NCBI GenBank assembly: GCA_009914755.4
Contig: CP086569.2
Coordinates: forward strand, 11,008,001-11,072,000
Direction of reading: 5' to 3'
Length of the DNA: 64,000 nt
Origin: the human T2T-CHM13v2.0 reference genome, Homo sapiens
Program-made: the position numbers and the translations under genes
The notes under the pieces: generated by a model
The model's database searches: none
What the model was told of the DNA's origin: nothing
The model's input: the letters and a program-made list of their open reading frames with translations, nothing else
Part shown: in pieces, positions 1 to 62,807 of the stretch
Layout of the letters: every line of letters begins with the position of its first letter
Position numbering within the stretch: position 1 is the first letter of the stretch

Positions 1-33
1 ATTCCATTCCATTGCATTCCATTCCATTCCCTG

Positions 34-100
34 CTTTCGACAGGATCTCACTCTGTGACACAGCCTGGAGTGCAGTAGCACAATCTCAACTCAAATTTAT
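34..100 (-). mobile_element. Alu-derived ~75-bp fragment (antisense Alu right-arm 3' end) embedded in satellite, copy 1
   Basis: TTTCGACAGGATCTCACTCTGTGACACAGCCTGGAGTGCAGTAGCACAATCTCAACTCA matches the antisense Alu 3' consensus GAGACGGAGTCTCGCTCTGTCGCCCAGGCTGGAGTGCAGTGGCGCGATCTCGGCTCAC. Confidence 0.7.
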
Positions 101-612
101 TTTGACCATTCCATTCCACTACATTCCACTACACTTCAGTTCACTCCACTCCACTCCAATCCATGCCATTCCACTCCATTCAATTCCATCCCAATCCAGT
201 CCACACCACTCAGCTCCACTCAATTCCGCTCTAATCCACTTCAGTCCACTCCAATACATTACACTTCATCATATTCAATTGCAATCCATTCCACTACACT
301 GCACTCCATTCAACTCCACTACATTCCTTTCGATTGCATGCCAGTCCATTGCACTCCATTCCACACCATTTCACTCCACTCCACTCCACTCCATTCCATT
401 CCATCCCATTCCCTTCCATTTCATTCCATCCCATTCCAACCCATCCCATCCCATCGCATCCCATTCCATTCCATCCCATCCCATTCTATTTGCTTCCATT
501 CCATTCCATTCCATTCCATTCCATTCCATTCCATTCCATCCCATTCCATTCCATTCCATCACATTCCATTCCATTCCATTCCTTTCCATTCCATTATACT
601 TCGTTCCATTCC

Positions 613-692
613 TTTCTTTTCTTTTGACAGGCTCTCACTCTCTCACACAGGCTGTATTGTCGTGGCACAATATCAGCTCACATTTCATTTCA
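613..692 (-). mobile_element. Alu-derived fragment module, copy 2
   Basis: ...GACAGGCTCTCACTCTCTCACACAGGCTG..GTGGCACAATATCAGCTCACATTTCATTTCACC. Confidence 0.65.
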
Positions 693-1347
693 CCATTCTC
701 TTCCATTGCATTTCATTGCATTCCATTCCATTGCATTATATTCTATTGTATTCCATTCCATTCCATTTCATTCTAATCCATTCCACTCCCTTTCATTCAA
801 CTCCACTCCACTTCACTCCACGCCACTCCACTCCACTCCACTCCACTCCACTCCATTCCACTCCATTCCATTCCATTCCATTCCATTCCATTCCATTCCA
901 TTCCATTCCATTCTACTCCAGTCCACTCCACTGCATGCCACTCGACTCCACTCCCTTACACTCAATTCCAATCCATTCTTCTCCATTTCATTCTATTCCT
1001 CTCCATTCCTCTCCACTCCACTCCACTACCGTCCACTCCAGTCCACTCCACTCCAATCCATTTCACTGCACTCCACTCCACTCCCTTCCATTCCATCCCA
1101 TTCCATTCTACTCCATTCCAGTCCACTGCATTCCACTCCATTATTTTCCATTCCATCCAAAGACGTTCCATTCTTTACCACTCTAATGCTCTCCACTACA
1201 CTCCACTCTTGTCCACTCCACTCCATTCCACTCCATCCAATTCCATTTACTCCAATCCACTTAGCTGTACTCCACTCCACTGCAGACCATTTCATTTCAT
1301 TCCATTCCATTCCACTCCATTCCATTCCACTCTTTACCATTCCATTC

Positions 1348-1425
1348 CTTTCTTTCGACAGGATCTCACTCTCCCACACAGGCTGGAGTAAAGGGACACA
1401 ATCTGAGCTCACATATCATTTTAAC
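1348..1425 (-). mobile_element. Alu-derived fragment module, copy 3
   Basis: TTTCGACAGGATCTCACTCTCCCACACAGGCTGGAGTAAAGGGACACAATCTGAGCTCAC. Confidence 0.6.
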
Positions 1426-1631
1426 ATTTAATTGCATTCCATTCCCTTGCATTCCATTAAATTTCATTCCATTCCATTCCTCTCCATTGCTTTCCACTGC
1501 ACTCCACCCAACTACACACCAATCCACACCACTCCATTCCATTCTTTTCCATTCCATTCCATTCCATTTTATTCCATTCCATTCCTTTCCATTCCATTCC
1601 ACTCCATTCCATTCCATTCCATTCCACTCCG

Positions 1632-1707
1632 TTCTTTCATGAGGGTCTCACTCTATCACCTAGTCTGGAATGCAGTGACACAATCTCAGCTCACATTTCA
1701 TTTCACC
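1632..1707 (-). mobile_element. Alu-derived fragment module, copy 4
   Basis: GGTCTCACTCTATCACCTAGTCTGGAATGCAGTGACACAATCTCAGCTCACATTTCATTTCACC. Confidence 0.7.
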
Positions 1708-2037
1708 ATTCCATTGCATTGCATTCCATTGCATTCAAGTCCATTCCATTCCATTGTATTCCATTCCATTCCATCCCATCCCATTCCTTTCCATTCCATT
1801 CCATTCCATTCCATTCCATTCCACTCTGCTGCATTCCATTCCATTCCATTCCAATCCATTCCACTCCACTCTACTCCACTCCTCTCCACTCCATCCCATT
1901 CCATCCCATTCAATTCCACTCCACTCCACTCTATTGCATTCCCTCCCATCCCTTTCCACTCTATTCCACTCCAATCCACAGCACTCCACTCCACTTCACT
2001 CTACTCCACTCCATTCCGTTCCATACCATTCCATCAC

Positions 2038-2112
2038 TTTGTGTCACGAAAATCTCACTCTGTCACCCTGGCTGCAGTGCAGTGGCGCAATTTCAGCTCA
2101 CATTTCATTTCA
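2038..2112 (-). mobile_element. Alu-derived fragment module, copy 5
   Basis: AATCTCACTCTGTCACCCTGGCTGCAGTGCAGTGGCGCAATTTCAGCTCAC; this copy retains GGCGC. Confidence 0.75.
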
Positions 2113-2312
2113 CAACTCCATTCCATTCCACTCCACTCAACTCCACTTCACTTCACGCCATTCCATCCCATTGCTTTGCTCTCTATTTCACTCCACTTCA
2201 CTGCACTCCACTCCATTCCATTCCACTCCCTACCATTCCATTCCCCTTCACTCCACTCCTCTCCAGTCAACTACTCTTCATTCCATTCCATTAAACTCTA
2301 TTGCATTCCATT

Positions 2313-2392
2313 CTTTTTATTTGTAAGTATCTCACTCTGTTTCTCACGCTCGAGTGCAGGGGCACAATCTCAGCTCACATTCCATTTCACCA
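2313..2392 (-). mobile_element. Alu-derived fragment module, copy 6
   Basis: TATCTCACTCTGTTTCTCACGCTCGAGTGCAGGGGCACAATCTCAGCTCAC. Confidence 0.65.
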
Positions 2393-2675
2393 TTCCAATG
2401 TATTTCAATCCATTACATTCCTTTTAATTGCAATCCACTCCATTCCACTGCACGCCATTCCATTCCATTCCATTCCAATCCATTCCACTAAATTCCATTC
2501 CATTCCACTACACTACACTCCCCATCATTCCATTCCATGCCATCCTATTTCACTCCATTCCACTCCTCTCCACTCTACTCTACTCGACTCCACTGCACTC
2601 CTCTCCAATCCATTCCATTCCATTCCCTTACTTTCCATTCTATTCCATTCCTTTTCACTCCATTCCATTACATAT

Positions 2676-2753
2676 ATTTCTTTCAACAGCATCTCACACT
2701 GTCAACCTGGCTGGAGTGCAATGACACAATCTCAGCTCACGTTTCAATTTACC
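2676..2753 (-). mobile_element. Alu-derived fragment module, copy 7
   Basis: CATCTCACACTGTCAACCTGGCTGGAGTGCAATGACACAATCTCAGCTCAC. Confidence 0.7.
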
Positions 2754-3046
2754 ATTCCATTCTTTTCCATTCCATACCATTCCATCCTACTCTTCTGCAC
2801 TCCACTCAACTCCATTCCATTCCATTCCATTCCACTTCATTCCACTCCACTCCACTCTATTCCAATCCACCCCATTCCAATCCAATCCACTCCACGCCAC
2901 TCCATTCCATTCCTTCCCATTCCATTCCTGTCCATTCTACTCCACTTCATTCCATTCTTTCCCATTCCATTCCACTCCATTCCACTCCACTCAATCCCAC
3001 TCCATTCCATTCCATTCCATTCCATTCCACTCAATTCCATTACATT

Positions 3047-3125
3047 CCTTTCTTTTGACAGGATCTCCCTCTGTCATAAAGGCTGCACTGCATTGGTCAA
3101 TATCAGCTCACATTTCGTTTCACTA
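3047..3125 (-). mobile_element. Alu-derived fragment module, copy 8
   Basis: TTTTGACAGGATCTCCCTCTGTCATAAAGGCTGCACTGCATTGGTCAATATCAGCTCAC. Confidence 0.6.
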
Positions 3126-3403
3126 TTCCATTCCATTCCATTTGATTTCATTCCATTCCATTCCACTCCACTCCACTCCAATCCACTCCATTCCATTCCA
3201 TCCAATTCCATGCCACTCCACTCCATTCCACTACACTCCATGCCACTCCATCCCGTTCCATTCCTCTCCATTCCAATCCAGTCAACTCCACTTCACTCCA
3301 CTCCATTCCATTCCATTCCATTCCATTCCATTCCATTCCATTCCATTCCATTCCATTCCATTCCATTCCCTTATATTCCATTCCACACACTTCAATTCCA
3401 TTC

Positions 3404-3483
3404 CTTTCTTTCACAAGACTCCCTTTCTCTCACCCAGGCTGGAGTGCAGTGGCTCAATCTGAGCTCATATTACATATCACCAT
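3404..3483 (-). mobile_element. Alu-derived fragment module, copy 9
   Basis: CTCTCACCCAGGCTGGAGTGCAGTGGCTCAATCTGAGCTCAT. Confidence 0.7.
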
Positions 3484-3931
3484 TCTATTCCACTGCATTC
3501 CATTGCACTGTATTCAATTGCATTCCGTTCCATTGCATTCTATTGCATCCCATTCCACTCCATTCCATTCCATTCCATTGTATTCCATTGCATTCCATTC
3601 TATTCCATTAAATTGCAATCCATTCCATTCCATTCCACTCCTTTCCGTTCCATTCCATTCCATTCCTCTCCACTCCATTCCATTCCTCTCCACTCTACTA
3701 AATTCCATTCCATTCCGTTCCATTCCATTCCATTCTATTCCATTCCACTCCACTCCAATCCACTCCAATGCTCTCCACTTGACTCCACTGCTCTCCACTC
3801 CACTCCACTCCATTCCATTCCACTCCATCCCATTCTATTCCACTGCATTCCCCTCCACTCCACTCCACTCTAGTCCAATCCAGTCCTCTCTACTCCACTC
3901 CATTCCATTCCCCTCCATTCCCTTCCATTCC

Positions 3932-4008
3932 TTTCCTTTGAAATTATGTCACTCTGTCACACATATTGGGGTGCAGTGGAAGAATATCAGCATATATTTC
4001 ATTTCACC
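3932..4008 (-). mobile_element. Alu-derived fragment module, copy 10 (diverged)
   Basis: TGTCACTCTGTCACACATATTGGGGTGCAGTGGAAGAATATCAGCATAT. Confidence 0.55.
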
Positions 4009-4650
4009 ATAGCCTTCCATTCCATTCCCCTCCATTCTATACTTTTAAACTCCACTCCATTTCAGTCCACTCCACTCCACTCCATTTCACTCCACTCCCC
4101 TCCATTCTACTCCTCTCTACTCCATCCCATTCCATTCCACTTCATTCTACTCAACTCCACTCCACTCCACTTCTTTCCATTCCATCCCATTCAATTCCAC
4201 CCCAATCCATTCCACTGCACTCCACTCCAATCCTTCCATTCAATTCCACTCCATTACACTCCACTCCATTCCAATCCATTCCAATTCTTTACATTCCATT
4301 CCATTCCAGTCCACTCTACTCCTCTACGTTTCTCTCCACTCCACTGCATTACATCCCATTCCATTCCACTCCACTCCACTCCATTCGATTCCCTTCCAGT
4401 AAATTCCATTCCATTCCTTTAAATTCTAATCCACTCCACTCCTCTCCACTCCATTCAATGCCATTCTATTCCATTACATTCCAGTCCATGGTACTCCATT
4501 CCACTCCACTCCACTCCACCACATTCCATTCCATTCCATCCCATTCCACTCCATTCCACTACTCTCCACTCTACTCCACTCCACTCCCCTCCACTCCTCT
4601 CCACTACACTCCATTCCATTCCAGTCCATTTAACTGCATAACATTCCATT

Positions 4651-4760
4651 TATTTCTTTCGGCAGCATCTCACTCTGTCACACAGGCTGGAATGCAGTGG
4701 CACACAGTCAGCTCAGGCTGGAGTGCAATGGCACTGTATCAGCTCACATTTCATTTCACC
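4651..4760 (-). mobile_element. Alu-derived fragment module, copy 11, with internal ~35-bp duplication
   Basis: CATCTCACTCTGTCACACAGGCTGGAATGCAGTGGCACACAGTCAGCTCAGGCTGGAGTGCAATGGCACTGTATCAGCTCAC. Confidence 0.75.
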
Positions 4761-5089
4761 ATTCCATTCCATTGCATTCAATTCTACTCCACTCCACTCC
4801 ACTCCATTCCATTCCATTCCACTCCAATCCACTCTACTCCACTCCACTTCATTCCACTCCACTCCATTCCATTCCATTCCACTCCATTCCACTCCAATGC
4901 CCTGCACTTGACTCTACTCCAATCCACTCCATTCGATTACTTTCTACTCCATAACATTCTATTCCACTCCATTCACATCCACTCCACTCCACTCTACTCC
5001 ATTCCAGTCCGCTCCACTCCACTTTACTCCACTCCCCTCCTCTCCACACCGCTCCGCTCCACTCCATTCCACTCCACTGCATTCCATTC

Positions 5090-5167
5090 CTTTCTTTCAA
5101 CAGGATCTCATTCTTTCAGCCACGTTATAGTGCAGTGCAACAATCTCAGCTCACATTTCGTTTCACC
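5090..5167 (-). mobile_element. Alu-derived fragment module, copy 12
   Basis: GGATCTCATTCTTTCAGCCACGTTATAGTGCAGTGCAACAATCTCAGCTCAC. Confidence 0.6.
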
Positions 5168-5513
5168 ATAGCATTTCATTCAATTCCATTCCCTAAAATT
5201 CCATTCCATTCCAGTACACTCTACTCCACTCCACTCCGCTCCATTCTATCCTGTTCCATTCCATTCCATTCCATTCCATTCCATTCCATTCCATTCCATT
5301 CCAATCCACTCCTCTCCTCTCCACTCCGCTCCATGACATTCAATTCCATTACATTCCAGTACATACTACTCCATTCCACTAAACTCCACCCCGCTACATT
5401 CCATTCCATTGTCCCATTTCACTGCATTCCACTACTCTTCACTCTACTCCACTCCATTCCACTGTACTCCTCTCCACTCCATTTCATTACATTTCACTCC
5501 TTTCCATTCCATT

Positions 5514-5624
5514 GCTTTCTTTCAAAGACATCTCACTCTGTCACACAGGATGGAGTGCAGTGGCACCATCTCAGCTCAGGCTGGAGTGCAATGACACAGT
5601 ATTAGCTCACATTTCATTTCAGCA
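5514..5624 (-). mobile_element. Alu-derived fragment module, copy 13, with the same internal duplication as copy 11
   Basis: CATCTCACTCTGTCACACAGGATGGAGTGCAGTGGCACCATCTCAGCTCAGGCTGGAGTGCAATGACACAGTATTAGCTCAC. Confidence 0.75.
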
Positions 5625-5825
5625 TTCCATTCCATTCCATTCCATTCCATTCCATTCCATTCCATTCCACTACACTGTGATCCACTCCACTCAACTTCAC
5701 TGCACTCCACTGTTTTGCATTCCCTTCCCTTCCTTTCTTTTCCATTCCATTCCAATCCATTCCATTCCACTCCCCTCCATTCGACTCCGTTCTATTCCAT
5801 TGCATTGTACTGCATTCCATTCCAT

Positions 5826-5905
5826 TCCTTTATTTTCACTTCATCTCACTCTTTCATCCTGAATTCAATGCAGTCACACAATCTTAGCTCACATTTCATT
5901 TCACC
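5826..5905 (-). mobile_element. Alu-derived fragment module, copy 14
   Basis: CATCTCACTCTTTCATCCTGAATTCAATGCAGTCACACAATCTTAGCTCAC. Confidence 0.6.
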
Positions 5906-6561
5906 ATTCCATTCCATTCCATTCCACACCATTTTATTAAACTCCTACACATTCCACTCCACTCTACTCAATTCCATTCCACTCCACTTCACTCCATTGC
6001 TTCCCTTTCCATTCCATTGTATTCCACTGCACTACGTTGCACTTCAATCAACTCCACATCACTCCAATCCATTTCATTCTCTTCCTTTCCATTATGTTCC
6101 TTTGTGTTCCATTCCACCTATTTCCATTCCACTGCACTCCATTCCACTCCACTCCGTTTCACTCCATTGAACTCCATTCCACTCCATTCCACTGTATACC
6201 ACTCCTTTCCTATCCATTCCACTCCACTCGACTCCATTTCTCTCCGCTCCATTCCATTCCACTCCATTGTATCCAATTCCACTGCATTCCATTCCACTCT
6301 CCACCACTCCCTTCCACTCCCTTTGACTCCATTCCACTGCACTCCAACTCTACTCCTCTCAACTCCATTTCAATGCTTTCCATTACTTTCCACTCCACTC
6401 CATTTCCATTCCATTCCATTCCATTCCATTCCATTCCATTCCATTCCATTCCATTCCATTCCACTACATTCCACTCCATTTCATTCCACTCCACTGTGTT
6501 CCATTCCATTCCATTCCACTCCACTGCATTTTATTCCATGCTTCTACATTCCATTCCATTC

Positions 6562-6636
6562 CTTTATTTCGACTGGATCTGACTTTGTCACCAGACTGAA
6601 GTGCTGTGGCACAATCTTAGCTCTCATTTCATTTCA
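6562..6636 (-). mobile_element. Alu-derived fragment module, copy 15
   Basis: TTTATTTCGACTGGATCTGACTTTGTCACCAGACTGAAGTGCTGTGGCACAATCTTAGCTCTC. Confidence 0.75.
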
Positions 6637-6699
6637 ACAAACAATTCCAATCCATTCTATTCCATTCTGTTCCATTCCATTCCATTCCATTCCATTCCA

Positions 6700-6750
6700 T
6701 TCCGTTCCGTTCCGTTCCGTTCCGTTCCGTTCCATTCCGTTCCGTTCCGT
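6700..6750. repeat. CpG-containing pentamer variant run (CGTTC)n
   Basis: ccgttccgttccgttccgttccgttccgttccattccgttccgttccgtt was read directly. Shorter runs occur near 7262-7280, 13462-13480 and 55795-55815. Confidence 0.8.
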
Positions 6751-7124
6751 TCCATTCCATTCCACTCCACTCCACTCCACTCCACTGCTCCCCATTCTGT
6801 TCCGTTCCATTCCATTCCATTCCATTCCATTGCACTCCCATCCACTCCACTCAAGTACACTGCACTTCACTCTACTCCAGTCCATCCATTTGATTCCATT
6901 CCGTTCCATTACATTCCACTCCACTCCATTTCCCTTCATTCCACTCCATTCCACTCCAATCTACTCCACTCCAATCCGTTCCTTTTGACTTCATTCCATT
7001 TGATTCCACCATATTCCATTCCATTCCACTCCATTCCACTCCGCTCGATTCCACTCCACTCCATTCAACTCCACTCATCTCCATTCCATTGAATTCCATT
7101 CCACTCCACTCCATTCCATTCCAT

Positions 7125-7201
7125 TCCTTTATTTCGACTGGATCTCACTCTGTCACCAAGTCTAAAGTGCATTGGCCCAACTGTAGCTCACATTTCATTT
7201 C
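7125..7201 (-). mobile_element. Alu-derived fragment module, copy 16
   Basis: TTTATTTCGACTGGATCTCACTCTGTCACCAAGTCTAAAGTGCATTGGCCCAACTGTAGCTCAC. Confidence 0.7.
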
Positions 7202-7651
7202 CCATTCCATTCCACTCCATTCCATTCCATTCCATTCCATTCCATTCCATTCCATTCCATTCCATTCCATTCCATTCCGTTCCGTTCCACTGGATTCCGA
7301 TCCACTCTACTCAACTCCATTTCAATCCAGTCCACTCCATTCTGTTCTGTTCCATTCTATTCCTTTCCATTCCATTCCATTCCGTCCTATTCCATTCCAT
7401 TCCACTCCACTCCATTCCATTCTACTCCATTCTGTTCCACTCCACGCCACTCCACTCCATTCCATTCCATTCTATTCCATTCCATTCCATTCTATTCCAC
7501 TGCCATCTGACCCACTCAATTCAACTTCACAGCACTCCACTCCGATCGATTCCGTTCCGTTCCATTCCGTGTAGTCCACTGCATTGAATTGCACTCCACT
7601 CCATTCCACTCCACTGCATTCCCTTCCATTCTAATGCATTCCATTCCATTC

Positions 7652-7728
7652 CTTTATTTCGAATAGTTCTCACACTGTCACCCAGACTGGAGTGCAGTGG
7701 CACCAACTTAGCTCATATTTCATTTCAC
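7652..7728 (-). mobile_element. Alu-derived fragment module, copy 17
   Basis: TTCTCACACTGTCACCCAGACTGGAGTGCAGTGGCACCAACTTAGCTCAT. Confidence 0.75.
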
Positions 7729-7962
7729 AATTCCAATCCATTCGTTTCCACACCATTCCATTCCACTCCCCTCCACTCCACTCCCATCCATTCCACTCTA
7801 CTCCACTCATTTCAATGCATTCCATTCCTTTCCATTCCAGTGCACTCCAATCCACTGCATTCAAATCCACTCCATTTCACTTCACTCCACTACATTCCGT
7901 TCCATTATGTTTTATTCCACTCCACACCATTCCATTCAATTCTACTCCATGCGATTCCATTC

Positions 7963-8035
7963 CTTTATTTAGACTGGATCTCACTGTGACACCCACACTG
8001 GTGTGCAGTGGCCAATCTTATTTCATATTTCCTTT
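7963..8035 (-). mobile_element. Alu-derived fragment module, copy 18
   Basis: TTTATTTAGACTGGATCTCACTGTGACACCCACACTGGTGTGCAGTGGCCAATCTTATTTCAT. Confidence 0.65.
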
Positions 8036-8684
8036 ATCATTTCTTTCCAATACATTCCATTCCATTCCATTGCATTCCATTCCACTGCACTCCAATCCAC
8101 TCCCCTCAACTCCATTCCAATCCACTCCATTCCATTCTGTTCTGTTCCATTCCGTGCCACTCCATTCCACTCCATTCTATTCCATTCCACTTAATTCAAT
8201 TCCATTCCATTCCACTCCATTGCTCTCCATTCCACTCCACTCCTTTCCATTCCTCTCCACTCCACTCCATTCCAATCCATTCCTTTCCATTCCACTCCAT
8301 TCCATTCCATACCACTCCACTCCACTCTTCTCCACTCCACTCCTCTCTATTCCATTCCATTTCATACCACTGTCCCCCATCAACTCCACTCAACTTCACT
8401 CCTCAACACTTCTCTCCGTTCTTTTTGTTCTTTTCCTTTCCATTCCATTCCACTCCATTCCATTTCATTCCACTCCATTCCATTCCATTGCATTCCACTC
8501 TTTTCCATTCCATTCCACTCCACTCCGTTCCACTCCACTCCACTCCACTCCATACCAATCCAATCCATTCCATTCCACTCCTTTCCATTCCATTTCACTC
8601 CATTCCACTACACTCCCATCTATTCTACTACATTCCATTCCTCTCCACTGCATTGTATTCCATGAAATTCCATTCCTTTCCATT

Positions 8685-52408: not shown

Positions 52409-55400
52409 TTCCATTCCATTCCATTCCATTCCATTCCATTCCATTCCATTCCATTCCATTCCATTCCTCTGCACTCCCATCCACTCTACTCAACTCCAAT
52501 CCACTCCACTCCATTCCCTTCCATTCTACTCCATTCCGTTTCATTTTCTTCCATTCCATTCCATTCCATTGCATTCCACTCCACTCCATTCCAATCCACT
52601 AGATTTCTCTCCGTTCCTCTCCATTCCATTGAACTTCACTCCATTCCACTCCACTCAATTTCATTCCACTACATTCCACTTCATTCCATTCCACTCCATT
52701 CCTCACCATTCTACTCCACTCCATTCGACTCCACTCCACTCCAGTCCATTCCCATCCATTCTATTCCATTCTGTTCCACTCCATTGCATTCTCTTCAGTT
52801 CCATTCCATTCCCCTCAACTCCATTCCATTCCACTCCATTCTACTCCTCTGCACTCCACTCCACTCTACTCCATTCTATTCCATTCCATTTCATTCCATT
52901 CAATTCCAATCCATTCCACTCCATTCCATTCCACTCCTATCCATTCCACTCCACTCTATTTCAATCCACTGTGATACACTACCCTCAAATCCACAGCATT
53001 CCTTTCCGTTCCATTCCATTCCACTCCATTCCACTCCATTTCATTTCCACTTCATTCGACTCTGCTGCATTTCACTCCACTCCGTTTCACTCCATTACAA
53101 CCCATTCTACTCCATTCGAGTCCACTCCACTCTATTCCACTCCATTCCATTAAAATCCACTCCATTCCATTCCACTTAATTCCATTCGTTTCCATTCCGT
53201 TCCATTCCATTCCATTCCTCTGCATTCCCATCCGCTATATTCAACACCACTCCACTCCACTTCACCCCAATCCCCTCCATTCCATTCCATTTCATTTCCT
53301 TCCATTCCACTCCATTCCACTCCATTCCATTCCACTCCTATCCGTTCCACTCCACTCCATTTCACTCCATTGTTATACACTACTCTCAACTCCCCAGAAT
53401 TCCATTCCATTCTATTCCATTCCTTTCCTTTCCATTCCACTCCATTTCACTCCATTTCATTCCACTAAATTGCAATCCATTCCATTCCACTCCACTCCGT
53501 GTCATTCCGTTGCATTCCATTCTACTCCATTCGACTCTACTCCACTCTACTCCATTCCATTAAACTCCACTCCATTCCATTGCACTCCATTCCATTCCAG
53601 TCCACTCCAATCCACTCCATTCCATTCCACTCATTCCAATGCACTCCACTCCATTCCACTCCACTCCACTCCTCCACTCCACTCCAGTTCATTTAAATCC
53701 TCTCCACTCCACTCCACTCCTTTCCATTCCATTCTCTTCCATTCCATTACATTCAATTCCATACCATACCATTCCATTCCACTGCATTCTAAAATACTCC
53801 ACTTGTCTCCACAACACTCCACGCCACTCCACTCCATTCCATTCCGTGCCATTCCATTTCATACCTTTCCATTCCATTTTGATCCGTTCCAATCCATTCG
53901 ATTCCACTCCACTATATTCTAATCCACTCCTTTTAACTCCATTCCATTCCATTCCAGTCCATTCCTCTCCAATCCATTCCACTCCACTCCATTCCACTCC
54001 TGTCCATTCCCATCCATTCCATTCTGTTGCATTGTGTTCAATTCCATTCCATTCCTCTCCACTCCATTCCATTCCACTACATTCCACTCCTTTGCACTCC
54101 ACTCTACTCCACTCTACTCCATTCCATTCCATTCCATTCCATTCCATTCCAGTCCATTCCACTCCATTCCATTCCACTCCTATCCGTTCCACTCCACTCC
54201 ATTTCAATCCACTGTTATAAGCTACCCTCAAATCCACAGCATTCCATTCTATCCATTGCATTCCACTCCGTTGCACTCCATTTCATTTCTACTACATTCC
54301 ACTCCACTGCATTGCACTCCACTCCGTTTCACTCCATTGCACTCCATTCTACTCCATTCGACTCCACTCCACTCTACTCCTCTCCATTCCATTGAACTCC
54401 TCTCCATTCCATTCCACTCAATTTCATTCCATTCCAGTCCATTCCTCTACACTCCCATCCACTCTATTCAACTCCACTCCACTCCACCGCAATCCAATCC
54501 ATTCCATTCCATTTCATTAAATTCCATTCCACTCCATTCCACTCCATTCCATTCCATTCCACTCCACTCCATTTCACTCCACTGTGATACACTACCCTCA
54601 ACTCCACAGCATTGCTTTCCATTCCATTCCTTTCCTTTCCATTCCACTCCATTCCACTCCACTCCATTCCCATCCACTCCATTCCACTCCAGTCCATTCC
54701 AATCCGTTCCATTCCATTGTATTCCATTCCATTCCGTTCGATTCCATTCCATTATATTCCACTCCATTCCATTCCACTCCACTCCACTCCAATCCATTCC
54801 ATTCCATTCCACTCCTTTCCATTCCTCGCAACTCCATTCAACTCCACTCCATTTCACTCCACTCTGATCCACTCCCATCAACTCCACCACATTGCCTTTC
54901 AGTCCATTACATTCCACTCCATTCCACTCCATTTCATTCCTTTTTATTCTACTACACTCCATTCCACTCCAGTCCATTTCACTCCATTGCACTCCATTCT
55001 ACTCAATTCCACAGCACTCCACTGCATTCCAATCCATTCCATTTAATTCCACTCCTTTCCATTCCCCTCAGTTCCATTTCTTTCCATTTCCTTCCACTCC
55101 ATTCCACTCCACTCCACTTCACTCCATTCCATTCAATTCCCCTCCATTTCACCCCGTTCCACTCCATAACACTCCACTCTACTCCAACTTATTGCATTCT
55201 ATTCAATTCCTCTCCACTTCACTCTGATCTGCTCCTCTTGACTCCACAACACTCCAAGCCACTCCACTCCATACCATTCCCTGCCGTTGCATTCTGTTCT
55301 GTTCCATTCCACTCCATTCAATTCCAGTCCACTTTTTTATCACTCCACGCCATTTCACTCCATTCCCCTCGATTCCACTCCTCTCTAATCCACTCCAGTC

Positions 55401-55448
55401 CACTATACTCCACTCTATTTTATTCCTTTCAGCTGCATTTCATTCCAT

Positions 55449-55528
55449 TCCTTTATTTCGAATGAATCTTACTCTGTCATCCAGACTGGAGTGCAGTGGC
55501 ACAATCTTAGCTCACGTTTCATTTCACC
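55449..55528 (-). mobile_element. Alu-derived fragment module, copy 69
   Basis: TTTCGAATGAATCTTACTCTGTCATCCAGACTGGAGTGCAGTGGCACAATCTTAGCTCAC. Confidence 0.8.
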
Positions 55529-56683
55529 TTTCCATTCCATTCCATTCCTTTCCATTCCATTCCATTCCATTCCCTTCCATTCCATTCCATTCCATTCCAT
55601 TCCATTCCATTCCCTTCCATTCCATTCCATTCCATTCCATTATATTCCATTCCTTTCCACTCCATTCCATTCAATTCCTTTCCATTCCATTCCTTTACTT
55701 TCCATTGCACTGCACTCCGATCCAATCCACTTCACTCCACACCACTCCACGCCAATCCACTTCCTTCTGTTCCGTGCCATTTCGTTCCATAACCTTCCGT
55801 TCCGTTCCGTTCCATTTCACGCCATTCCATTCCACTCCATTCCATTCTACTCCACTGCCTTAAACTCCATTACAATCCATTCCACTCCACTCCTTTCGAC
55901 ACCACTCCACTTCAGTCCGTTCAGATCCGTTCCACTCCATTCTGTTCCATTCCAGTCCATTCCATTCCATTCCACTCCATTCCACTCCTTTCCACTCCAC
56001 TTCACTTCACTCAATTCCATTTGATTACAACCCATTCTATTCCATTTTACTCCATTCCACTCCATTCGATTCCTCTCTTCTCCATTCCACTCAACTCCAT
56101 TTCATTCCAATTTTATCCACTCCCTTCAAATACACAGTATTCCCTTCCCTTCCATTCCATTTCATTCCACTCCATTCCACTCGATTTCACTTCATTACCT
56201 TCCACCCCACTCCTTTCCACACCACTCCATTTTTCTCCATTGCACTCCTTTCTTCTCCATTCCACTGCACTCCAATCCACTCCACTCCATTCAGTTAAAT
56301 TCCATTCCACTCCACTCCACTTCATTTCATTCCACTACATTCCACGCTACTACACTCAATTCCATTTGATTCCACTCCACTGGACTCCACTCATCTCCTT
56401 TCCATTCCATTCCATTCCATTCCATTCCGTTCCATTCTATTACATTCCATTCCACTGCACTCCGATGCACTCCACTTGACTCCACACCACTCCACCCCAC
56501 TCCACTGCAGTGCGTTCCACGCATTTCTGTTCCATTCCTTTCCATTCCACTCCATTTCATTCCACTCCACTCCATTCCACTCCACTCCATTTCACTCGTT
56601 TCCCGTCGATTCCACTACTGTCTACTCCACTCCGCTGCAAACCACTCCACTCCATTCCATTCAGTTCCATTCTATTCCATTTC

Positions 56684-56760
56684 TTAATTTCGACTGAATC
56701 TGACTCTGTCACCCAGACTGGAGTGCAGTGGCACAATCTTAGCTCACATTCCATTTCACC
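56684..56760 (-). mobile_element. Alu-derived fragment module, copy 70
   Basis: TTTCGACTGAATCTGACTCTGTCACCCAGACTGGAGTGCAGTGGCACAATCTTAGCTCAC. Confidence 0.85.
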
Positions 56761-59272
56761 TTTCCATTCCATTTCATTCCACTCCTCTCCATTCCATTCC
56801 TTTTCATTCCATTCCACTCCATTCCACTGCACTCCGATCCACTCCACTCAACTCCCCTCCACTTCACTCCACTCAAATCCATTCCATTCCACTCTACTCC
56901 ATTCTAATCCACTAGATTTCTCACCATTTCACTCTATTCCACTCCACTCCACTGCACTTCACTCCACTCCACTCCATTCCATTCCACTCCATTCCACTCC
57001 ATTCCATTCCACTCCATTCCTATCCATTCCACTTCACTCCACTCCATTCCAGCCCGTTCTGGTACTTTCCATTCCATTGTGTTCCATTCCATTGCATTCC
57101 CTTTGATTACATTCCTTTAAACTCCACTCTATTTCTTTACACGCCATTTCACTCCACTCCACTCACCTCCACTCCATTTAATTCCATTCAATTCCATTCC
57201 ATACCATACTTTCCATTCCATTCCATATCTTTCCATTCCATTCCGCTCCATTCCACTCCATTCCATCCTACTCCAATCCATTCCAATCCACTCTACTTCA
57301 CTCCACTCTGAAAAATTCCCCTCAACGCCACAGGATTCCAATCCATTCCATTCCATTCCACTCCACTCCATTCCGTTTCACTCCATTGCTCTCCATTCTA
57401 CTCCATTCCACTCCACTCCACTCCTCTCCATTCCATTAAACTCCATTCCATTCCTTTCCCCTCCTTTCCTTTCCATTCCATTCCATTCCACTCCACTCAA
57501 CTCCAGTCTTTTCCACTCCATTTCACTCCACTCCACTCCACTAGTTTCCATTCCATTCCATTCCATTATACATTACTCCAATCCACTCCACTTGACTCCA
57601 CACCACTCCTCACCGTTCCACTCCATTCGCATCCGTGCCATTCCATTCCATACCTTTACGTTCCATTCTGTTCAATTCCACTCCATTCCATTCTCCTTCC
57701 CTCCATTCTACTCCATTCCCTTTAACTCCATTCCACTCCATTCCATTCCACTCCGTTCCCCTCCACTCCACTCCACTCCAGTCCATTTTGATCTGTTTCA
57801 TTCCATTCTGTTCCATTCCATTCCATTCTGTTTATTTCCTTTCCATTCCATTCCACTCCATTCCACTCCACTCTTCTCCATTCCACTCCATTCTACTGCA
57901 CTCCACTCCAATCTGCTCCACTCCACTCCTTTCCATTCCATTCCATTTCATTGCATTCCATTCCATTCCATTCCATTCCGTTCCATTCCATTCCATTCCA
58001 TTCCACAGCACTCCTATCCCCTCCACTTGACTCCACACCAGTCCATGCCACTCCACTGTATTTCATTCCATGACATTCGGTTCCATATCGTTCTGTTCCA
58101 TTCCGTTCCAATCCACTCCATTCCATTGCACTCCAATCCATTCTCCTCCACTTCATTTAATTCCATTCCACTCCATTCCACCTCATTAGACTCCACGCCA
58201 CTCCACTATATTCCATTCCATTCCGTTCCACTCCATTCAATTCCATTCCATTTCACGGCACTCCACTCCATTTCACTCTACTGCAATCCACTCCACTTCA
58301 TTCCACTCTTCTCCACTCCAGCCCCCTCCATTCTATTCTTCTCCACTCCATTCCATTCCTTTCCAATTCACTCAATTCATCTCCATTCCACTAAATGCCA
58401 TTCCTGTGCATTACATTCCACTCCAATCCACCTCACTCCACTACATTTCACTCCATTCTCCTCCATTACAATCCTCGACATTCCATTCCAGTCAACTCCC
58501 CTCCTTTCCATTCAGCTCCAGTCCACATCATTGCTTTCCTTTCCATTTCATTCCATTCCGTTCCATTCCATTCCATTCCATTTCACTCGATGCCATTCCA
58601 TTCCACTCTGCTCCATTGCATTAAACTAAACTCCACTTCACTCCACTCCACTCCACTCAATTCCATTGCATTCCATTCACTTCCACTCCACTCCAGTCCA
58701 TTTCATTCCACTGCATTCCATTCCATTGTATTGTATTCCTTTCCATTCCAATCAAATCCACTCCTCTCCACTCTGTTTTGTTCCATTCCATTCCGTTCCA
58801 TCCCATTCCATTCCTTTCCACTCCACTCTATTCTATTCCACTCCATTCCACTCCATTTCACTCCATTCCACTCCACTCCATTCCGTTTCATTGCTTTCCA
58901 TCCAACTGCACTCTGATCCTCTCCACTCAACTCCACTCCAGTCCACTCCACTACACTCCATGCCATTCCATTGCACTCCTTTCCCCTCTATTCGAGTACA
59001 CTCCACTCCTCTCCATTCCATCCACTCCATTCCACTCCATTACACTCCACTCCATTCCACTCCACTGCTCTCCATTCCCATCCATTCTTTTCCATTCCAC
59101 TGTATTCCATTCCATTCCATTCCATTCCATTCTACTCCATTACAATCTATTCCACTCCACTCCATTCCACTCCAATCCATTCGACTCCCACCCAATCCAT
59201 TCCACTCCATTGCACTCCATTCCATTCCTCTCAACTTCATTCCATTCCATTCTACCCTATTCCCTTCCATTC

Positions 59273-59352
59273 CTTTATTTTAACTGGATATCGCTGGGTC
59301 TCCTAGACTGGAGTGCAGTGGCACAATTTTAGCTCACATTTGCTTTTACCAT
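59273..59352 (-). mobile_element. Alu-derived fragment module, copy 71
   Basis: TGGATATCGCTGGGTCTCCTAGACTGGAGTGCAGTGGCACAATTTTAGCTCAC. Confidence 0.75.
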
Positions 59353-59520
59353 TCCATTGCACTCTGATCCAATACAGTCTACTCCACTCCACTCCACTTT
59401 TTTACATTCTGTTCAGTTCCATTTCATTTTGTTCCATTCCATTACACTCCATTCCATTCTGCTACACTCTTTTCAACTCCACTCCGTTTCACACCATTTC
59501 CCTCCATCCCACTCCACTCT

Positions 59521-59605
59521 ACTACACTACACTACACTACACAACACTACACTACACTACACTACACTACACTACACTACACTACACTACACTACACTAC
59601 ACTAC
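59521..59605. repeat. (ACTAC)n ~17-unit pentamer-variant microsatellite run
   Basis: actacactacactacactacacaacactacactac...actacattcc was read directly; it translates as TTLHYTTLHY... Confidence 0.85.
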
Positions 59606-59633
59606 ATTCCATTCTGCTCCATTTTGTTCCATT

Positions 59634-59712
59634 CCTTTATTTCGACTGAATCTCACTCTGTCACCCAGACTGGAGTGCAGTGGCCCAATCTTATCTCACA
59701 TTTCTTTTTATC
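59634..59712 (-). mobile_element. Alu-derived fragment module, copy 72
   Basis: TTTCGACTGAATCTCACTCTGTCACCCAGACTGGAGTGCAGTGGCCCAATCTTATCTCAC. Confidence 0.85.
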
Positions 59713-60110
59713 TTTACATTTCATTCCATTCCATTCCATTCCATTCCATTCCATTCCATTCCACTCCTTTCCATTCCCCTGCACTCTGATCCACTACACT
59801 GAAATCCACTACACTGCTCACCACTACACTCCTTTCCATTCTGTTCCATTCCCATCCGTTCCGTTACATTCCACATTACTGAATTCCATTCCACTCCACT
59901 GCTCTCCTATCCAATTAACTCCATTCCACTCCATTCCACCCCACTCCACTCCATTCCACGCATGACATTCTATTCCACTCTATTCCATTCCATTCAACTC
60001 AATTGCACTCCTTTCCACTCCACTCCTTTCCACTCCACTCCGATCCATTTACCTCCATTCAATTCCACTCCACTTTATTCCTTTCCATTCTACTCCATTC
60101 CATTCTATTA

Positions 60111-60190
60111 CTTTATTTCGGTTGGATCTCACTCTGTCACCCGGACACAATTGCATTGGCATAATTATAGTTCAAATTTCGTTTCATCAT
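60111..60190 (-). mobile_element. Alu-derived fragment module, copy 73 (diverged)
   Basis: TTTCGGTTGGATCTCACTCTGTCACCCGGACACAATTGCATTGGCATAATTATAGTTCAA. Confidence 0.6.
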
Positions 60191-60997
60191 TTCTTTGCAT
60201 TCCATTCCATTCCATTCCAATCCACTCCACTCCATTCCTTTCCTTTCCCCTGTACTCTGATCCACTCCTCTAAACTCCAGTCCACTCCACTCTGTTCCTT
60301 TGTGTTCCATTTCATTCCATTCCATTAAATTCTTTCTGTTCTGTTCCATTCCACTCCACTCAATTCCATTCCACTCCACTCAATTCCATTCCACTCCATT
60401 CTTCTTCATTCCACTACACTCCACTCTACTCCATTCTACTCCACTCTACTGCACTAAAGTCCATTCCATTCCATTCCATTCCATTCCATTCCATTCCATT
60501 CCATTCCATTCCATTCCATTGCTATCCGGTCCATTCCACTAAACTCCACTCCACTCTACTCCATTCCTATTTGTTCTGTTCCTTTCCATTCCATTCCACT
60601 CCACTCCATTCCACTATGCTGCATTTCACTCCATTCCATTCCATTCCACTCCTCTCCACTCAACTCCACTAAACTTCACTTCTTTCCACTCCAGTGCATT
60701 CCACTCCACTCCACACCATTCCACACCATTCCATTCCATTCCAATCCATTCTATTCCATTCAATTCCTCTCCATTCCACTCCATTTAACTCCACTATATT
60801 CTTCTCCACTCCGCTCCATTCCACTGCATTCCATTCAATTCCAGACATCTCCATTCCATTCTATTCCTCTCCAGTCCACTCCGTTCCACTCCTGTCAAAT
60901 CCACTCCACTCCATTGCACTCCAATCCACTCCATTCCACTCCATTCCATTTCACTCCACTCCATTCCATTCCATTCTACTCCATTCTATTCCATTCC

Positions 60998-61078
60998 TTT
61001 ATTTTGAATGGTTCTCACTCTGTCACTGCAGACTGGAATGCAGTTGCACAATCTTAGCTCAGATTTCATTTTAGCATT
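60998..61078 (-). mobile_element. Alu-derived fragment module, copy 74
   Basis: GGTTCTCACTCTGTCACTGCAGACTGGAATGCAGTTGCACAATCTTAGCTCAG. Confidence 0.8.
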
Positions 61079-62051
61079 CCACTGCATTCCATTCCATTCC
61101 ATTCCTTTCTATTGTTTTGCATTCCATTCAATTCCATTCCCCTCAGCTCAACTGCGCTGCTCTCCATACCACTCCTTTCCATTAAATTCCATACCACTCC
61201 ACTCCTTTGCACTCCACTCCATTCCAATCAACTCCACTCCATTCAACTCCAATCCACTCAAATCCACTCCATTCCACGCCACTGCACTTCATTCTATTAT
61301 GTTCCATTCCTTTCCGTTCCTTTCCTTTCCATTCCTTTCCTTTCCATTCCATTCCACTCTATTCCATTCCATTCCACTCCACTCCAATCCACACCACAAT
61401 ACTGCATTCCATTCCATTTCATTCCATTCCACCTCACTCCAATCCCCTCCACTCAACTCCAGTCCACTATACTCTGTTCCATTCCATTCTGTTCCATTCC
61501 GTTCCATGCCATTCCTCTCCATTCCTTTCCACTCCATTCCACTCCAATCTATTTCACAAAATTCCACTCCATTCCACTCTGCTCCACTCAACTCCACTCC
61601 TTTTCATTCCATTCCATTCCATTCCATTCCCCTCTATTCCATTCCATTCCACTCCAAGCTACTACATTTCATTCCAGTCCACTCCACTCCATTCCACCCC
61701 ACTGAACTCCTTTCCATTCCATTCCATTCCATTCCATTCCATTCCATTCCATTCCATTCCGTTCCACTACACTCCAATCCACTGCAGTCAATTGTGTTCC
61801 ACTCCATTCCATTCAATTTTTTTCCACTCCCATCCACTCCATTCAACTCCACTCCATTACACTCCACTCCACTCCACTCCATTCCATTCCACTCCATTCC
61901 GTTCCACTCCTTTCCTGTCCACTCCATTCCACTCCATTCCACTGCACTCCATTCCACTTCACTCGTCTCCTTTCCACTCCAATCGATTCCGCTCCATTGC
62001 ATTCCACTCAACTCCATTCCATTCCATTGTATTCCATTCGTTCCATTCTTC

Positions 62052-62128
62052 CATTTTGAGAGGATCTCACTCTGTCTTCCAGACTGGATTGCAGTGGCTA
62101 AATCTTAGCTCACATTTCATTTCACCAT
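62052..62128 (-). mobile_element. Alu-derived fragment module, copy 75
   Basis: GAGAGGATCTCACTCTGTCTTCCAGACTGGATTGCAGTGGCTAAATCTTAGCTCAC. Confidence 0.8.
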
Positions 62129-62723
62129 TCCATTCCATTCCATTTCATTCCATTCGACTCCACTTCACTTCACTCCACTCCAATCCACTGCACTCCATTC
62201 CACTCTAATCCATTCCATTCCATCCCATTATATTTCACTCCTCTGCGATCCACTCCACTCAACTCCATTCCAGGCCACTTCACTCCTTTCAGTTCCTTGC
62301 CATTCCTTTCCATTCCATTCCACTTCACACCACTCCACTCAACTGCACTCCACTACACTCCATTTCGTTCCATTACACTGACCTCTGACCTAATTGAGTC
62401 AACTCCACTCCAGTCCTCTCCAATCCATTCCATTGCATTCCATTCCATTCCCTTCCTTTCCGTTCCATTCCTCTCCATTCCATTCCACTGCATTCCTTTA
62501 CACTGCACTCCAATTCACTCCATTCAACTCCATTCCACTCCACTCCACTCAATTCCACTCCAATCCGTTCAATTAGACTCCATTCCATTCAACTCCTTTC
62601 CATTCCATTCTACTCCACTCCATTCCACTCCACTCCATTCCACTCCACTGAACTCCATTCTTCTCCATTCCATTCCACTCCACTCCATTCCATTCCACTC
62701 TATTCCATTCGTTTAAATTCCGT

Positions 62724-62797
62724 TATTTCTACTTGATACAACTGTGCTACACAGACTGGAGTGTGGTGGCACAATCTCAGCATAGATTTCATTACAC
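62724..62797 (-). mobile_element. Alu-derived fragment module, copy 76 (5' part diverged), 10 bp upstream of the L1 insertion
   Basis: CAACTGTGCTACACAGACTGGAGTGTGGTGGCACAATCTCAGCATAG. Confidence 0.6.
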
Positions 62798-62807
62798 CAT
62801 TCCATTC

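What the first reader, a model, noticed from the sequence alone, without database searches (positions are those of the whole stretch)
1..62807. An Alu 3' fragment is an integral, co-amplified module of this HSat3-like array (76 same-orientation copies)
**What the sequence shows.** A segment of about 65-75 bp that aligns to the antisense 3' end of the Alu right arm (GAGACGGAGTCTCGCTCTGTCGCCCAGGCTGGAGTGCAGTGGCGCGATCTCGGCTCAC) recurs 76 times, always in the same orientation. Each copy has the same boundaries: on one side CCTTTATTTCGAC, probably the Alu poly(A) in antisense plus the first Alu bases; on the other GCTCAC merging into ATTTCATTTCACCATTCC satellite.

**Why I read it as one ancestral event.** There are no per-copy poly(A) tails or target-site duplications. 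That argues for a single ancestral Alu insertion or capture that then became part of the amplified unit, not 76 independent retrotranspositions.

**Irregular spacing.** Spacing ranges from 275 to about 3000 bp. That implies pentamer-number instability between otherwise fixed modules.

**CpG decay.** Nearly all Alu CpGs carry the same TpG/CpA decay substitutions in all copies: CTCGCT to CTCACT, GTCGCC to GTCACC, and GGCGCGATCTCGG to GGCACAATCTTAG. So deamination mostly predates amplification. The junction CpG in TTCGAC is retained in roughly half the copies.
Basis: partly seen in the sequence, partly recalled or inferred. Interest (0 to 1): 0.6.

Follow-up and report, generated by a model that had tools for sequence, protein, structure and literature searches.

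The report
Alu tail fragment amplified inside HSat3
A roughly 60-base piece of one old Alu element was captured once in a human (CATTC)n satellite and copied along with it, leaving 76 copies in this window; this is real but is a published feature of human satellite 3, so it is ordinary.

Summary
**Observation: confirmed.**
- Window 1-62808 is one same-strand CATTC/CACTC pentamer satellite (HSat3 type). A young antisense L1 cuts it at 62809.
- It holds exactly 76 copies of a 78-bp non-pentamer module, all in one orientation.
- About 58-64 bp of each copy aligns to Alu positions ~225-288 plus a 7-nt A-tail remnant.
- All copies share the same two junctions and the same CpG-to-CpA changes.

**Interpretation: supported.**
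- The fragment comes from one ancestral capture, not 76 insertions.
- In 340 kb of related contigs from metagenomes, 589 more copies break at the same Alu position. All have the same orientation relative to the CATTC strand.

**Added here.**
- There are two module types: 13 ancestral-like copies at 1-5.7 kb and 63 copies with four linked derived substitutions.
- Spacers keep the 5-bp register.
- A 204-bp tandem duplication (195 bp exactly identical) shows how spacers grow.
- There is no higher-order period and no sign of constraint.
- Copies are old, 12-15% from their type consensus.

**Corrections.** Spacing is 119-4954 bp. TTAG is the type B state only.

**Novelty: already known.** The T2T-Y and T2T centromere papers report HSat3 intermingled with Alu fragments on Y and the acrocentric chromosomes. 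Interest is low.

The parts
1..62808 (+). HSat3-type pentamer satellite, with the CATTC/CACTC strand on +. There are 3459 CATTC and 2366 CACTC words and only 5% G. No CAACCCGA 10-mer is present. The array runs off the left end of the window and is cut on the right by an L1 poly-T.
30..5623 (+). Block of 13 'type A' modules (CCTTTC / GACAGG / CCAGGC / CTCAG, the states closest to Alu). Cores: 30-107; 617-694; 1348-1425; 1630-1707; 2037-2114; 2314-2391; 2676-2753; 3048-3124; 3404-3481; 3931-4008; 4652-4760; 5090-5167; 5515-5623.
5828..62798 (+). Block of 63 'type B' modules (CCTTTA / GACTGG / CCAGAC / CTTAG, four linked derived substitutions). Cores: 5828-5905; 6562-6638; 7127-7203; 7652-7729; 7963-8038; 8686-8762; 9147-9223; 9543-9619; 10009-10086; 10351-10427; 11696-11783; 13296-13372; 14759-14835; 15229-15306; 15605-15681; 16120-16196; 16511-16586; 16901-16977; 17447-17524; 17809-17886; 18436-18512; 18886-18940 (internally deleted); 19005-19082; 19377-19454; 20004-20080; 21360-21436; 21791-21866; 22201-22277; 22687-22764; 23572-23648; 24043-24118; 24423-24499; 25059-25136; 25336-25412; 27175-27251; 27902-27979; 28364-28441; 30796-30872; 31152-31229; 32478-32553; 35452-35529; 36393-36471; 37345-37422; 37972-38049; 38668-38745; 39304-39380; 39839-39916; 40186-40263; 40722-40804; 42578-42655; 43982-44058; 45343-45419; 46795-46872; 51749-51826; 52330-52407; 55451-55528; 56683-56760; 59273-59350; 59635-59712; 60111-60188; 60997-61075; 62050-62126; 62721-62798.
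10009..10086 (+). Best-preserved single module (profile score 141), useful as the reference copy. From left to right it reads: CCTTTATTTCGAC junction, antisense Alu ~288-225, GCTCAC, then ATTTCATTTCACC junction.
4652..4760 (+). 109-bp module with an internal 31-bp duplication (AGGCTGGAGTGCA..CAGCTC twice). The same rare duplication is in the module at 5515-5623, 863 bp away, so a two-module block was duplicated.
5515..5623 (+). Second 109-bp module with the same internal 31-bp duplication.
26638..27045 (+). Tandem duplication of a 204-bp pentamer block inside a spacer, with 195 bp exactly identical at offset 204. This directly shows spacer growth by block duplication.

Best explanation
**Origin (inferred).** One Alu element contributed its last ~60 bases (Alu ~225-282 plus a few A's) to an ancestral unit of an HSat3 (CATTC)n satellite. 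The fragment lies antisense to the CATTC strand. By the time of the common ancestor of today's copies it had already lost all of its CpGs.

**Spread.** The fragment has no activity of its own. It was multiplied passively with the surrounding pentamers by unequal exchange and tandem or segmental duplication. The ancestral unit was probably about 300-500 bp.

**Later changes.**
- Pentamer spacers expanded and contracted, mostly in 5-bp steps and sometimes by larger block duplications.
- Modules were lost from some tracts.
- Copies drifted 12-15% from their consensus without local homogenisation.
- A derived variant with four linked substitutions (type B) expanded to make most of this window. It sits next to a block of the ancestral type A.

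**Shown here.** Alu homology, a single shared truncation point, uniform orientation, shared substitutions, kept pentamer register, the block duplication, and the two types.

**Inferred.** The order of events and the exchange mechanism. I cannot tell whether the fragment arose by insertion into the satellite followed by loss of the Alu 5' part, or by capture of the end of a neighbouring Alu.
For: - **Alu homology:**
- **Count and orientation:** 76 copies on one strand.
- **Shared junctions and shared non-consensus states:**
- **Same break point across the family:** Alu 224-226 in 559 of 589 copies on 120 other contigs, with no other Alu part present.
- **Orientation across the family:** 624 of 624 agree with the CATTC strand, and 567 are full-length.
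- **CpG-to-CpA is family-wide.** The family consensus equals type A; 110 of 567 copies are type B.
- **Spacer length modulo 5:** counts are 4:40, 3:23, 2:6, 1:4, 0:2. My chi-square from these counts is about 71 with 4 df.
- **204-bp tandem duplication, 195 bp exactly identical:**
- **No long-range period:**
- **No neighbour effect among type B copies:** permutation p = 0.10.
- **No extra conservation:** the core is no better conserved than the pentamer flanks, 0.858 against 0.835 and 0.843.
Against: - The module is not at a fixed period (119-4954 bp). Its density falls from 37 to 23 to 16 copies per roughly 20 kb. 'Part of the repeat unit' therefore holds only for the ancestral state, or for parts of the array.
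- A target-site duplication cannot be assessed, because both flanks are pentamer repeats.
- The ages do not fit a standard clock. All CpGs decayed before the common ancestor, and 12-15% divergence accumulated afterwards. Together that is more than expected for an Alu of any age unless the local mutation rate is raised (my inference).
- The substitution spectrum has no transition excess. Simple neutral decay does not explain this.
Confidence: 0.9

Rival explanations
1. 76 independent Alu retrotranspositions into a preferred satellite target.
For: Alu insertions into satellites do occur. A young L1 has inserted at 62809 in this same array.
Against: - Every copy breaks at Alu ~225 and has the same 7-nt tail remnant and the same flanks.
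- Every copy carries the same CpG decay and the same non-CpG changes, and lies in the same orientation.
- The same holds for 589 copies elsewhere.
- No Alu sequence from positions 1-217 is found anywhere.
Confidence: 0.01
2. An HSat3-intrinsic motif that resembles Alu by chance.
For: None, beyond the short length of the match and the absence of an Rfam hit.
Against: - Single-copy nhmmer E-values reach 1.5e-8.
- A 64-nt alignment to the published Alu-Sx has about 80% identity, and nearly all mismatches are CpG transitions.
- Shuffles give 0 matches, against 19 observed.
Confidence: 0.005
3. The module was not co-amplified. It spread secondarily into a pre-existing pentamer array by gene conversion or repeated short-patch copying.
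For: - Spacing is irregular and module-free tracts reach 4.9 kb.
- Copy-specific flank signatures fade within about 30 bp of the module.
Against: - Modal spacings of about 280-470 bp are seen here and on the other contigs.
- Blocks containing modules are themselves duplicated: the two modules with the same internal duplication lie 863 bp apart.
- The HSat3A4 marker 24-mer usually sits about 30-100 bp downstream of a module on the related contigs, as expected for a larger shared unit.
Confidence: 0.08
4. The Alu-derived module is kept because it does something, for example a protein-binding site or an RNA-processing signal in satellite III transcripts.
For: - It persists at high copy number across the family.
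- The Alu sense strand coincides with the GGAAT strand. From my own knowledge, that is the strand reported as the stress-induced SatIII RNA.
Against: - The core is no more conserved than the neighbouring pentamers, 0.858 against 0.84.
- Copies differ pairwise by 21-26%.
- Deleted and degenerate copies are tolerated.
- Long tracts lack the module.
Confidence: 0.03

Closest known systems
HSat3-associated Alu fragments on chrY and the acrocentric short arms (T2T-Y paper, bioRxiv 10.1101/2022.12.01.518724; also the one-line statement in the T2T centromere paper, bioRxiv 10.1101/2021.07.12.452052, citing Bandyopadhyay et al. 2001)
   Same: Blocks of HSat3 are intermingled with Alu fragments, with no local homogenisation of the fragments. 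The window shows exactly this.
   Different: - Those papers label the fragments AluY. Here the 60-bp fragment has 2 non-CpG mismatches to both Alu-Sx and Alu-J, so it cannot be assigned.
- In what I read, those papers do not describe the common break point, the two module types or the kept pentamer register.
HSat3 subfamily A4 (clones pTRS-47, pR-1, pR-2, pR-4, pE-2; acrocentrics and Y)
   Same: - Pentamer array without the CAACCCGA 10-mer.
- The most common HSat3A4-specific 24-mer occurs 11 times on 10 of the related contigs, usually about 30-100 bp downstream of a module. The top markers of nine other HSat3 subfamilies occur 0 times and the 3B4 marker once.
- Its chromosomal distribution matches where HSat3-Alu fragments are reported.
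   Different: - The window itself has no exact copy of any published top marker. The best is the 3A4 marker with 1 mismatch at 2903.
- No metagenome contig matches the window at 95% identity or more. The window is therefore a diverged relative, or a part of the family not sampled.
HSat1B / DYZ2 (2.5-kb unit containing an Alu-derived subunit)
   Same: A satellite whose units carry a piece of one ancestral Alu that was amplified passively.
   Different: - DYZ2 has a fixed 2.5-kb unit, a much longer Alu part and more than 98% identity between units.
- Here there is no fixed unit, only about 60 bp of Alu, and 74-79% pairwise identity.
Beta-satellite/LSau composite arrays
   Same: A TE-derived fragment travels with a satellite.
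   Different: The satellite and the TE are both different, and those arrays are regular nested units.

Membership tests
Alu SINE (as an element) | Significant sequence homology to the Alu consensus | tested here: met
   There are 66-69 nhmmer hits at E<0.01. With the published Alu-Sx and Alu-J consensus sequences there are 65 and 49 hits.
Alu SINE (as an element) | Dimeric ~300-bp body (left arm with A/B boxes, A-rich linker, right arm) | tested here: not met
   Only Alu ~225-288 is present. No hit to positions 1-217 is found in the window or in 340 kb of related contigs. It is an Alu-derived fragment, not an element.
Alu SINE (as an element) | Per-insertion poly(A) tail and target-site duplication | tested here: not met
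   Every copy has the same T3(A/C)T3 remnant. A target-site duplication cannot be assessed in pentamer flanks.
Alu subfamily (J, S or Y) | Diagnostic positions | tested here: inconclusive
   The family consensus has 2 non-CpG mismatches to the published Alu-Sx and 2 to Alu-J. From memory, Y and S are identical over this stretch.
Human satellite 3 | Long same-strand arrays of CATTC-derived pentamers | tested here: met
   TRF finds period 5. The array has 3459 CATTC and 2366 CACTC words over 62.8 kb.
Human satellite 3, B group | Interspersed 10-mer (CAACCCGA[A/G]T on the CATTC strand). That it marks the B group is from memory. | tested here: not met
   There are 0 occurrences in the window.
HSat3A4 | Exact subfamily-specific 24-mers (Altemose 2014) | tested here: inconclusive
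   Only the top marker of each subfamily was available, because the full list held is cut to the 2A1 subfamily. The window has 0 exact matches and 1 match at one mismatch. The related contigs have 11 exact 3A4 markers, 1 for 3B4 and 0 for all other subfamilies.
Composite satellite with a TE fragment in every unit (HSat1B type) | Fixed unit length with one TE fragment per unit | tested here: not met
   Spacing is 119-4954 bp, and shared 20-mers show no dominant diagonal.
Composite satellite with a TE fragment in every unit (HSat1B type) | All TE fragments descend from one insertion | tested here: met
   The break point, orientation and substitutions are shared.
HSat3-Alu fragments as described for chrY and the acrocentrics | Alu fragments intermingled with HSat3, without local homogenisation | tested here: met
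   Adjacent type B copies are no more alike than random pairs, p = 0.10. At the domain scale, however, types A and B occupy separate blocks.
HSat3-Alu fragments as described for chrY and the acrocentrics | Location on chrY or an acrocentric short arm | not testable with these tools
   No human assembly is available here.

The most novel reading that the evidence does not exclude
This HSat3-Alu family may evolve under an unusual mutation regime.
- Copy differences show no transition excess: the ts/tv ratio is about 0.45-0.65 in the modules and 0.55 in the pentamers.
- Copies lie 12-15% from their consensus.
- All six Alu CpGs were lost, all in the same strand direction, before the common ancestor.
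- The one surviving CpG now decays mainly in the opposite direction.

Taken together, this is hard to fit to a standard neutral clock for any Alu. It could mean a several-fold raised, transversion-rich mutation or repair process in this heterochromatin.
Probability: 0.15. Interest if true: 0.45.

Novelty: already known. Interest (0 to 1): 0.15.

Why it matters
The finding matters little as a discovery. TE fragments inside HSat3 units, and Alu fragments intermingled with HSat3 on Y and the acrocentric chromosomes, are in the T2T papers, and RepeatMasker tracks annotate them.

It does have practical uses:
- The module is a convenient non-pentamer landmark. It gives unique k-mers, and the A/B types can serve as array markers.
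- It can help in aligning, subtyping and dating otherwise featureless HSat3.
- Because all copies descend from one founder, they form a natural set for measuring mutation spectra in this heterochromatin.

Tried and rejected
- **Rfam scan.** A permissive E-value scan of the best copy (9900-10200) gave no 7SL/SRP or any other hit. The fragment is too short for that model.
- **Subfamily assignment by Altemose 2014 24-mers.** The stored marker file is cut after the 2A1 subfamily, and searching it for module strings found nothing. Only the 14 top markers from Table 1 could be tested, and none is exact in the window.
- **Scan of bacterial and archaeal genomes for the junction 19-mer.** It gave 2 single matches in long MAG contigs, which I take as chance and not human contamination.
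- **Higher-order repeat search.** Shared 20-mers gave only a few local duplications. TRF sees only period 5.
- **Pfam on the L1 fragment.** No family was found. The PDB sequence search identified it.
- **Literature.** The centromere-paper supplement, the Hoyt et al. preprint, Altemose 2014 and the HSat3 transcription-factor preprint contain no description of this specific module. Bandyopadhyay 2001 could not be consulted. Jarmuz 2007 and the Science version of the centromere paper are not held.
- **Other sources considered from memory.** I rejected 7SL RNA, which has extra bases between GATCGCGCC and CACTGCAC. I also rejected the SVA Alu-like region, which has an insertion after CTCGCTC that the module lacks.

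Full report
**What the window is**

- Bases 1-62808 are one uninterrupted, same-strand pentamer satellite. It has 3459 CATTC and 2366 CACTC words, 5% G and a strongly negative GC skew throughout. TRF sees only period 5.
- The 10-mer CAACCCGA is absent.
- At 62809 the array meets a 13-nt poly-T followed by the antisense 3' end of an L1.
- The L1 reading frame is open to its natural stop. It is 322/324 identical to the C-terminus of human LINE-1 ORF2p in PDB 8uw3.
- The 3'UTR reads GATGACACATTAGTGGG. From memory, that is the 'ACA' state of the human-specific L1HS-Ta subfamily.
- The window is therefore human, or at least hominine, HSat3-type heterochromatin.

**Checking the observation**

- A 21-mer of the proposed core with up to 3 mismatches hits 19 times, all on +. 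It hits 0 times in 100 dinucleotide shuffles.
Every hit is on the minus strand and every hit covers Alu ~225-288.
[quoted passage not shown] That gave 49 and 65 hits. All are on the minus strand and the large majority begin at or within 1-2 nt of GTGAGCC.
- A 140-bp profile built from the window finds 78 strong hits (score above 60) plus 8 weak, degenerate ones. Two modules are split by an internal 31-bp duplication, so the count is exactly 76.

**Anatomy of the module**

- The conserved non-pentamer core is 78 bp: CCTTT(A/C)TTTCGAC...GCTCAC ATTTCATTTCACC.
- Read on the other strand, it is GTGAGC(T)(G/A)AGATTGTGCCACTGCACTCCAG(C/T)CTGGGTGACAGAGTGAGATCC(T/A)GTCGAAA(G/T)AAAGG.
- That is the last ~58 bases of the Alu right arm plus a short A-rich remnant.
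- No other part of Alu occurs anywhere in the window.
- Rfam finds nothing, which is expected for so short a piece.

**One founder**

- The break at Alu 224-226 and the 7-nt tail remnant are the same in all copies, and so are both flanks.
- I scanned public metagenome contigs for a 25-mer spanning the Alu/satellite junction. I take these to be host DNA; their sources were not checked.
  - The contigs total 340 kb and carry 624 strong modules.
  - All 624 have the same orientation relative to the CATTC strand, and 567 are full-length.
  - An independent Alu search of the contigs gives 589 hits, of which 559 start at Alu 224-226. None reaches upstream of position 218.
  - None of the contigs is the window itself: there is no match of 95% identity over 400 bp or more.
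- This is therefore a large family, and the whole family shares one truncation point.
- Independent insertions and chance resemblance are excluded.

**Two module types**

- The first 13 modules (30-5623) read CCTTTC / GACAGG / CCAGGC / CTCAG.
- The other 63 modules (5828-62798) read CCTTTA / GACTGG / CCAGAC / CTTAG.
- The first set of states is the Alu-like one, and it is also the consensus of the 567 outside copies. At the four diagnostic sites, 287 are 'CAGC' and 110 are 'ATAT', with a few intermediates.
- Type B is therefore a derived sub-lineage that expanded. The window spans a boundary between an ancestral-type block and a derived-type block.

**CpG decay**

- At every Alu CpG, most of the 76 copies carry CA:
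  - 64 of 76 at CTCGCT.
  - 68 of 76 at GTCGCC.
  - 52 and 66 of 76 at GGCGCG.
  - 71 of 76 have A at the last site.
- The same holds in 498-548 of 567 outside copies.
- By contrast, the junction CpG in TTCGAC is CG in 39 copies, TG in 17 and CA in 10.
- The Alu CpGs were therefore already gone in the common ancestor of the surviving copies, and the junction CpG has been decaying independently since then.
- Strictly, this dates the decay before the last common ancestor, not necessarily before the first amplification.

**Spacing**

- Start-to-start distances run from 119 to 4954 bp with a median of 536. They are not 275 to about 3000.
- Module density falls from 37 to 23 to 16 per roughly 20 kb across the window.
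- Spacer lengths modulo 5 are 4:40, 3:23, 2:6, 1:4, 0:2. My chi-square from these counts is about 71 with 4 df.
- Length changes have therefore been overwhelmingly in whole pentamers.
- Larger steps also occur:
  - A 204-bp block is tandemly duplicated at 26638-27045, with 195 bp exactly identical.
  - The two modules with the same internal duplication lie 863 bp apart.
  - A 1.2-kb stretch around 47-49.4 kb is 85% self-similar, against a background of 73%.
- There is no dominant long period, so this is not a regular composite unit like DYZ2.

**Age and constraint**

- Copies differ from their type consensus by 12% (type B) and 15% (type A). Pairwise differences are 21-26%.
- Neighbours within type B are not more alike than random pairs (p = 0.10).
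- The core is no better conserved than the flanking pentamers, 0.858 against 0.835 and 0.843.
- Nothing suggests selection on the module.

**What is already known**

[quoted passage not shown] For satellite III it cites Bandyopadhyay et al. 2001.
[quoted passage not shown] - The Bandyopadhyay clones pR-1, pR-2, pR-4 and pE-2, together with pTRS-47, belong to HSat3A4.
- The top HSat3A4-specific 24-mer occurs 11 times on 10 of the related contigs, usually about 30-100 bp downstream of a module. The top markers of nine other HSat3 subfamilies occur 0 times and that of 3B4 once.
- The window itself has that marker only with one mismatch, at 2903.
- The family is thus most likely HSat3A4-like, but the window's own subfamily and chromosome remain unassigned.

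**Alu subfamily**

- Against the published sequences, the ancestral module has 2 non-CpG mismatches to Alu-Sx and 2 to Alu-J.
- From memory, AluY equals AluS over this stretch.
- Sixty bases cannot decide. The 'AluY' label in the literature can be neither confirmed nor refuted here.

**Mechanism**

- The best reading is passive hitch-hiking:
  1. A single capture of an Alu 3' end. I cannot tell whether it was an insertion followed by loss of the 5' part or the capture of a neighbouring Alu end.
  2. Amplification with the satellite by unequal exchange and duplication.
  3. Pentamer slippage and block duplication in the spacers.
  4. Loss of modules in some tracts.
  5. Later expansion of a derived variant.
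- The rivals are weaker: secondary spread by conversion, or a selected function. The report sections give the reasons.

**Unexplained**

- Differences among copies show no transition excess:
  - 203 transitions against 360 transversions in type B cores.
  - 99 against 220 for isolated mismatches.
  - 1291 against 1996 in the Alu part of the 567 outside copies.
  - 330 against 604 for single-change pentamers.
- Counts of distinct variant types are saturated and so uninformative. Shared descent also inflates the counts.
- Shared descent alone, however, should not favour transversions.
- All six Alu CpGs decayed as CG-to-CA on the CATTC strand. The surviving junction CpG decays mostly to TG: 17 against 10 in the window, and 169 T at the C position against 60 A at the G position on the contigs.
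- Complete CpG loss before the ancestor plus 12-15% divergence after it is more change than a standard clock allows for any Alu. This is my inference.
- These points could reflect an unusual mutation regime in this heterochromatin, or they could be artefacts of amplification history. I could not separate the two.

**Verdict**

The phenomenon is already published. Interest is low.

Noticed in passing
window 62809-64000 (minus strand): A young L1 is inserted antisense into the satellite. It consists of a 13-nt poly-T, then the L1 3'UTR and the last 324 codons of ORF2. The frame is open to the natural stop and is 322/324 identical to human ORF2p (PDB 8uw3). The 3'UTR has the 'ACA' state that, from memory, marks L1HS-Ta. 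The element runs off the window, so its length and the far junction are unknown.
   Followed up: partly
window 26638-27045: A 204-bp pentamer block inside a 1.7-kb spacer is tandemly duplicated, with 195 bp exactly identical. It is far younger than anything else in the array.
   Followed up: yes
window 4652-4760 and 5515-5623: Two modules 863 bp apart share the same internal 31-bp duplication. This marks an old duplication of a two-module block. The blocks are now only 77% identical, against a 73% background.
   Followed up: partly
all 76 modules; also L003-L122: Differences among copies show no transition bias. The ts/tv ratio is about 0.45-0.65 in the modules and 0.55 for single-change pentamers. 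This is unexpected for primate point mutation.
   Followed up: partly
module columns 13-14, 21-22, 29-30, 51-54, 59-60 versus 10-11: All six Alu CpGs decayed in the same direction, CG-to-CA on the CATTC strand. The junction CpG, which is still decaying, goes mostly to TG (17 against 10 here; 169 against 60 on the related contigs).
   Followed up: partly
window 1-62808: CACTC makes up about 40% of the recognisable pentamers. Module density falls from left to right (37, 23 and 16 per roughly 20 kb), with module-free tracts up to 4.9 kb (46873-51748). These tracts contain only doubtful, degenerate module remnants, for example at 34734-34884 and 47740-47866.
   Followed up: partly
window 18886-18940: One module has an internal deletion of about 20 bp and sits only 119 bp before the next module (19005-19082). 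This is the shortest spacing in the window.
   Followed up: no
L121 (metagenome contig OOKJ01000614.1) 1-3523: A module and about 100 bp of pentamers abut 3.4 kb of non-satellite sequence. By eye it looks like an endogenous-retrovirus interior. This would be another TE junction in the same satellite family, and I did not analyse it.
   Followed up: no
L017, L040, L046, L052, L056, L057, L087, L096, L106, L109: The most common HSat3A4-specific 24-mer of Altemose 2014 (AATTCCATTCCTTCCCATTCCATT) usually lies about 30-100 bp downstream of a module on these contigs. This ties the Alu module to HSat3A4-type units.
   Followed up: partly
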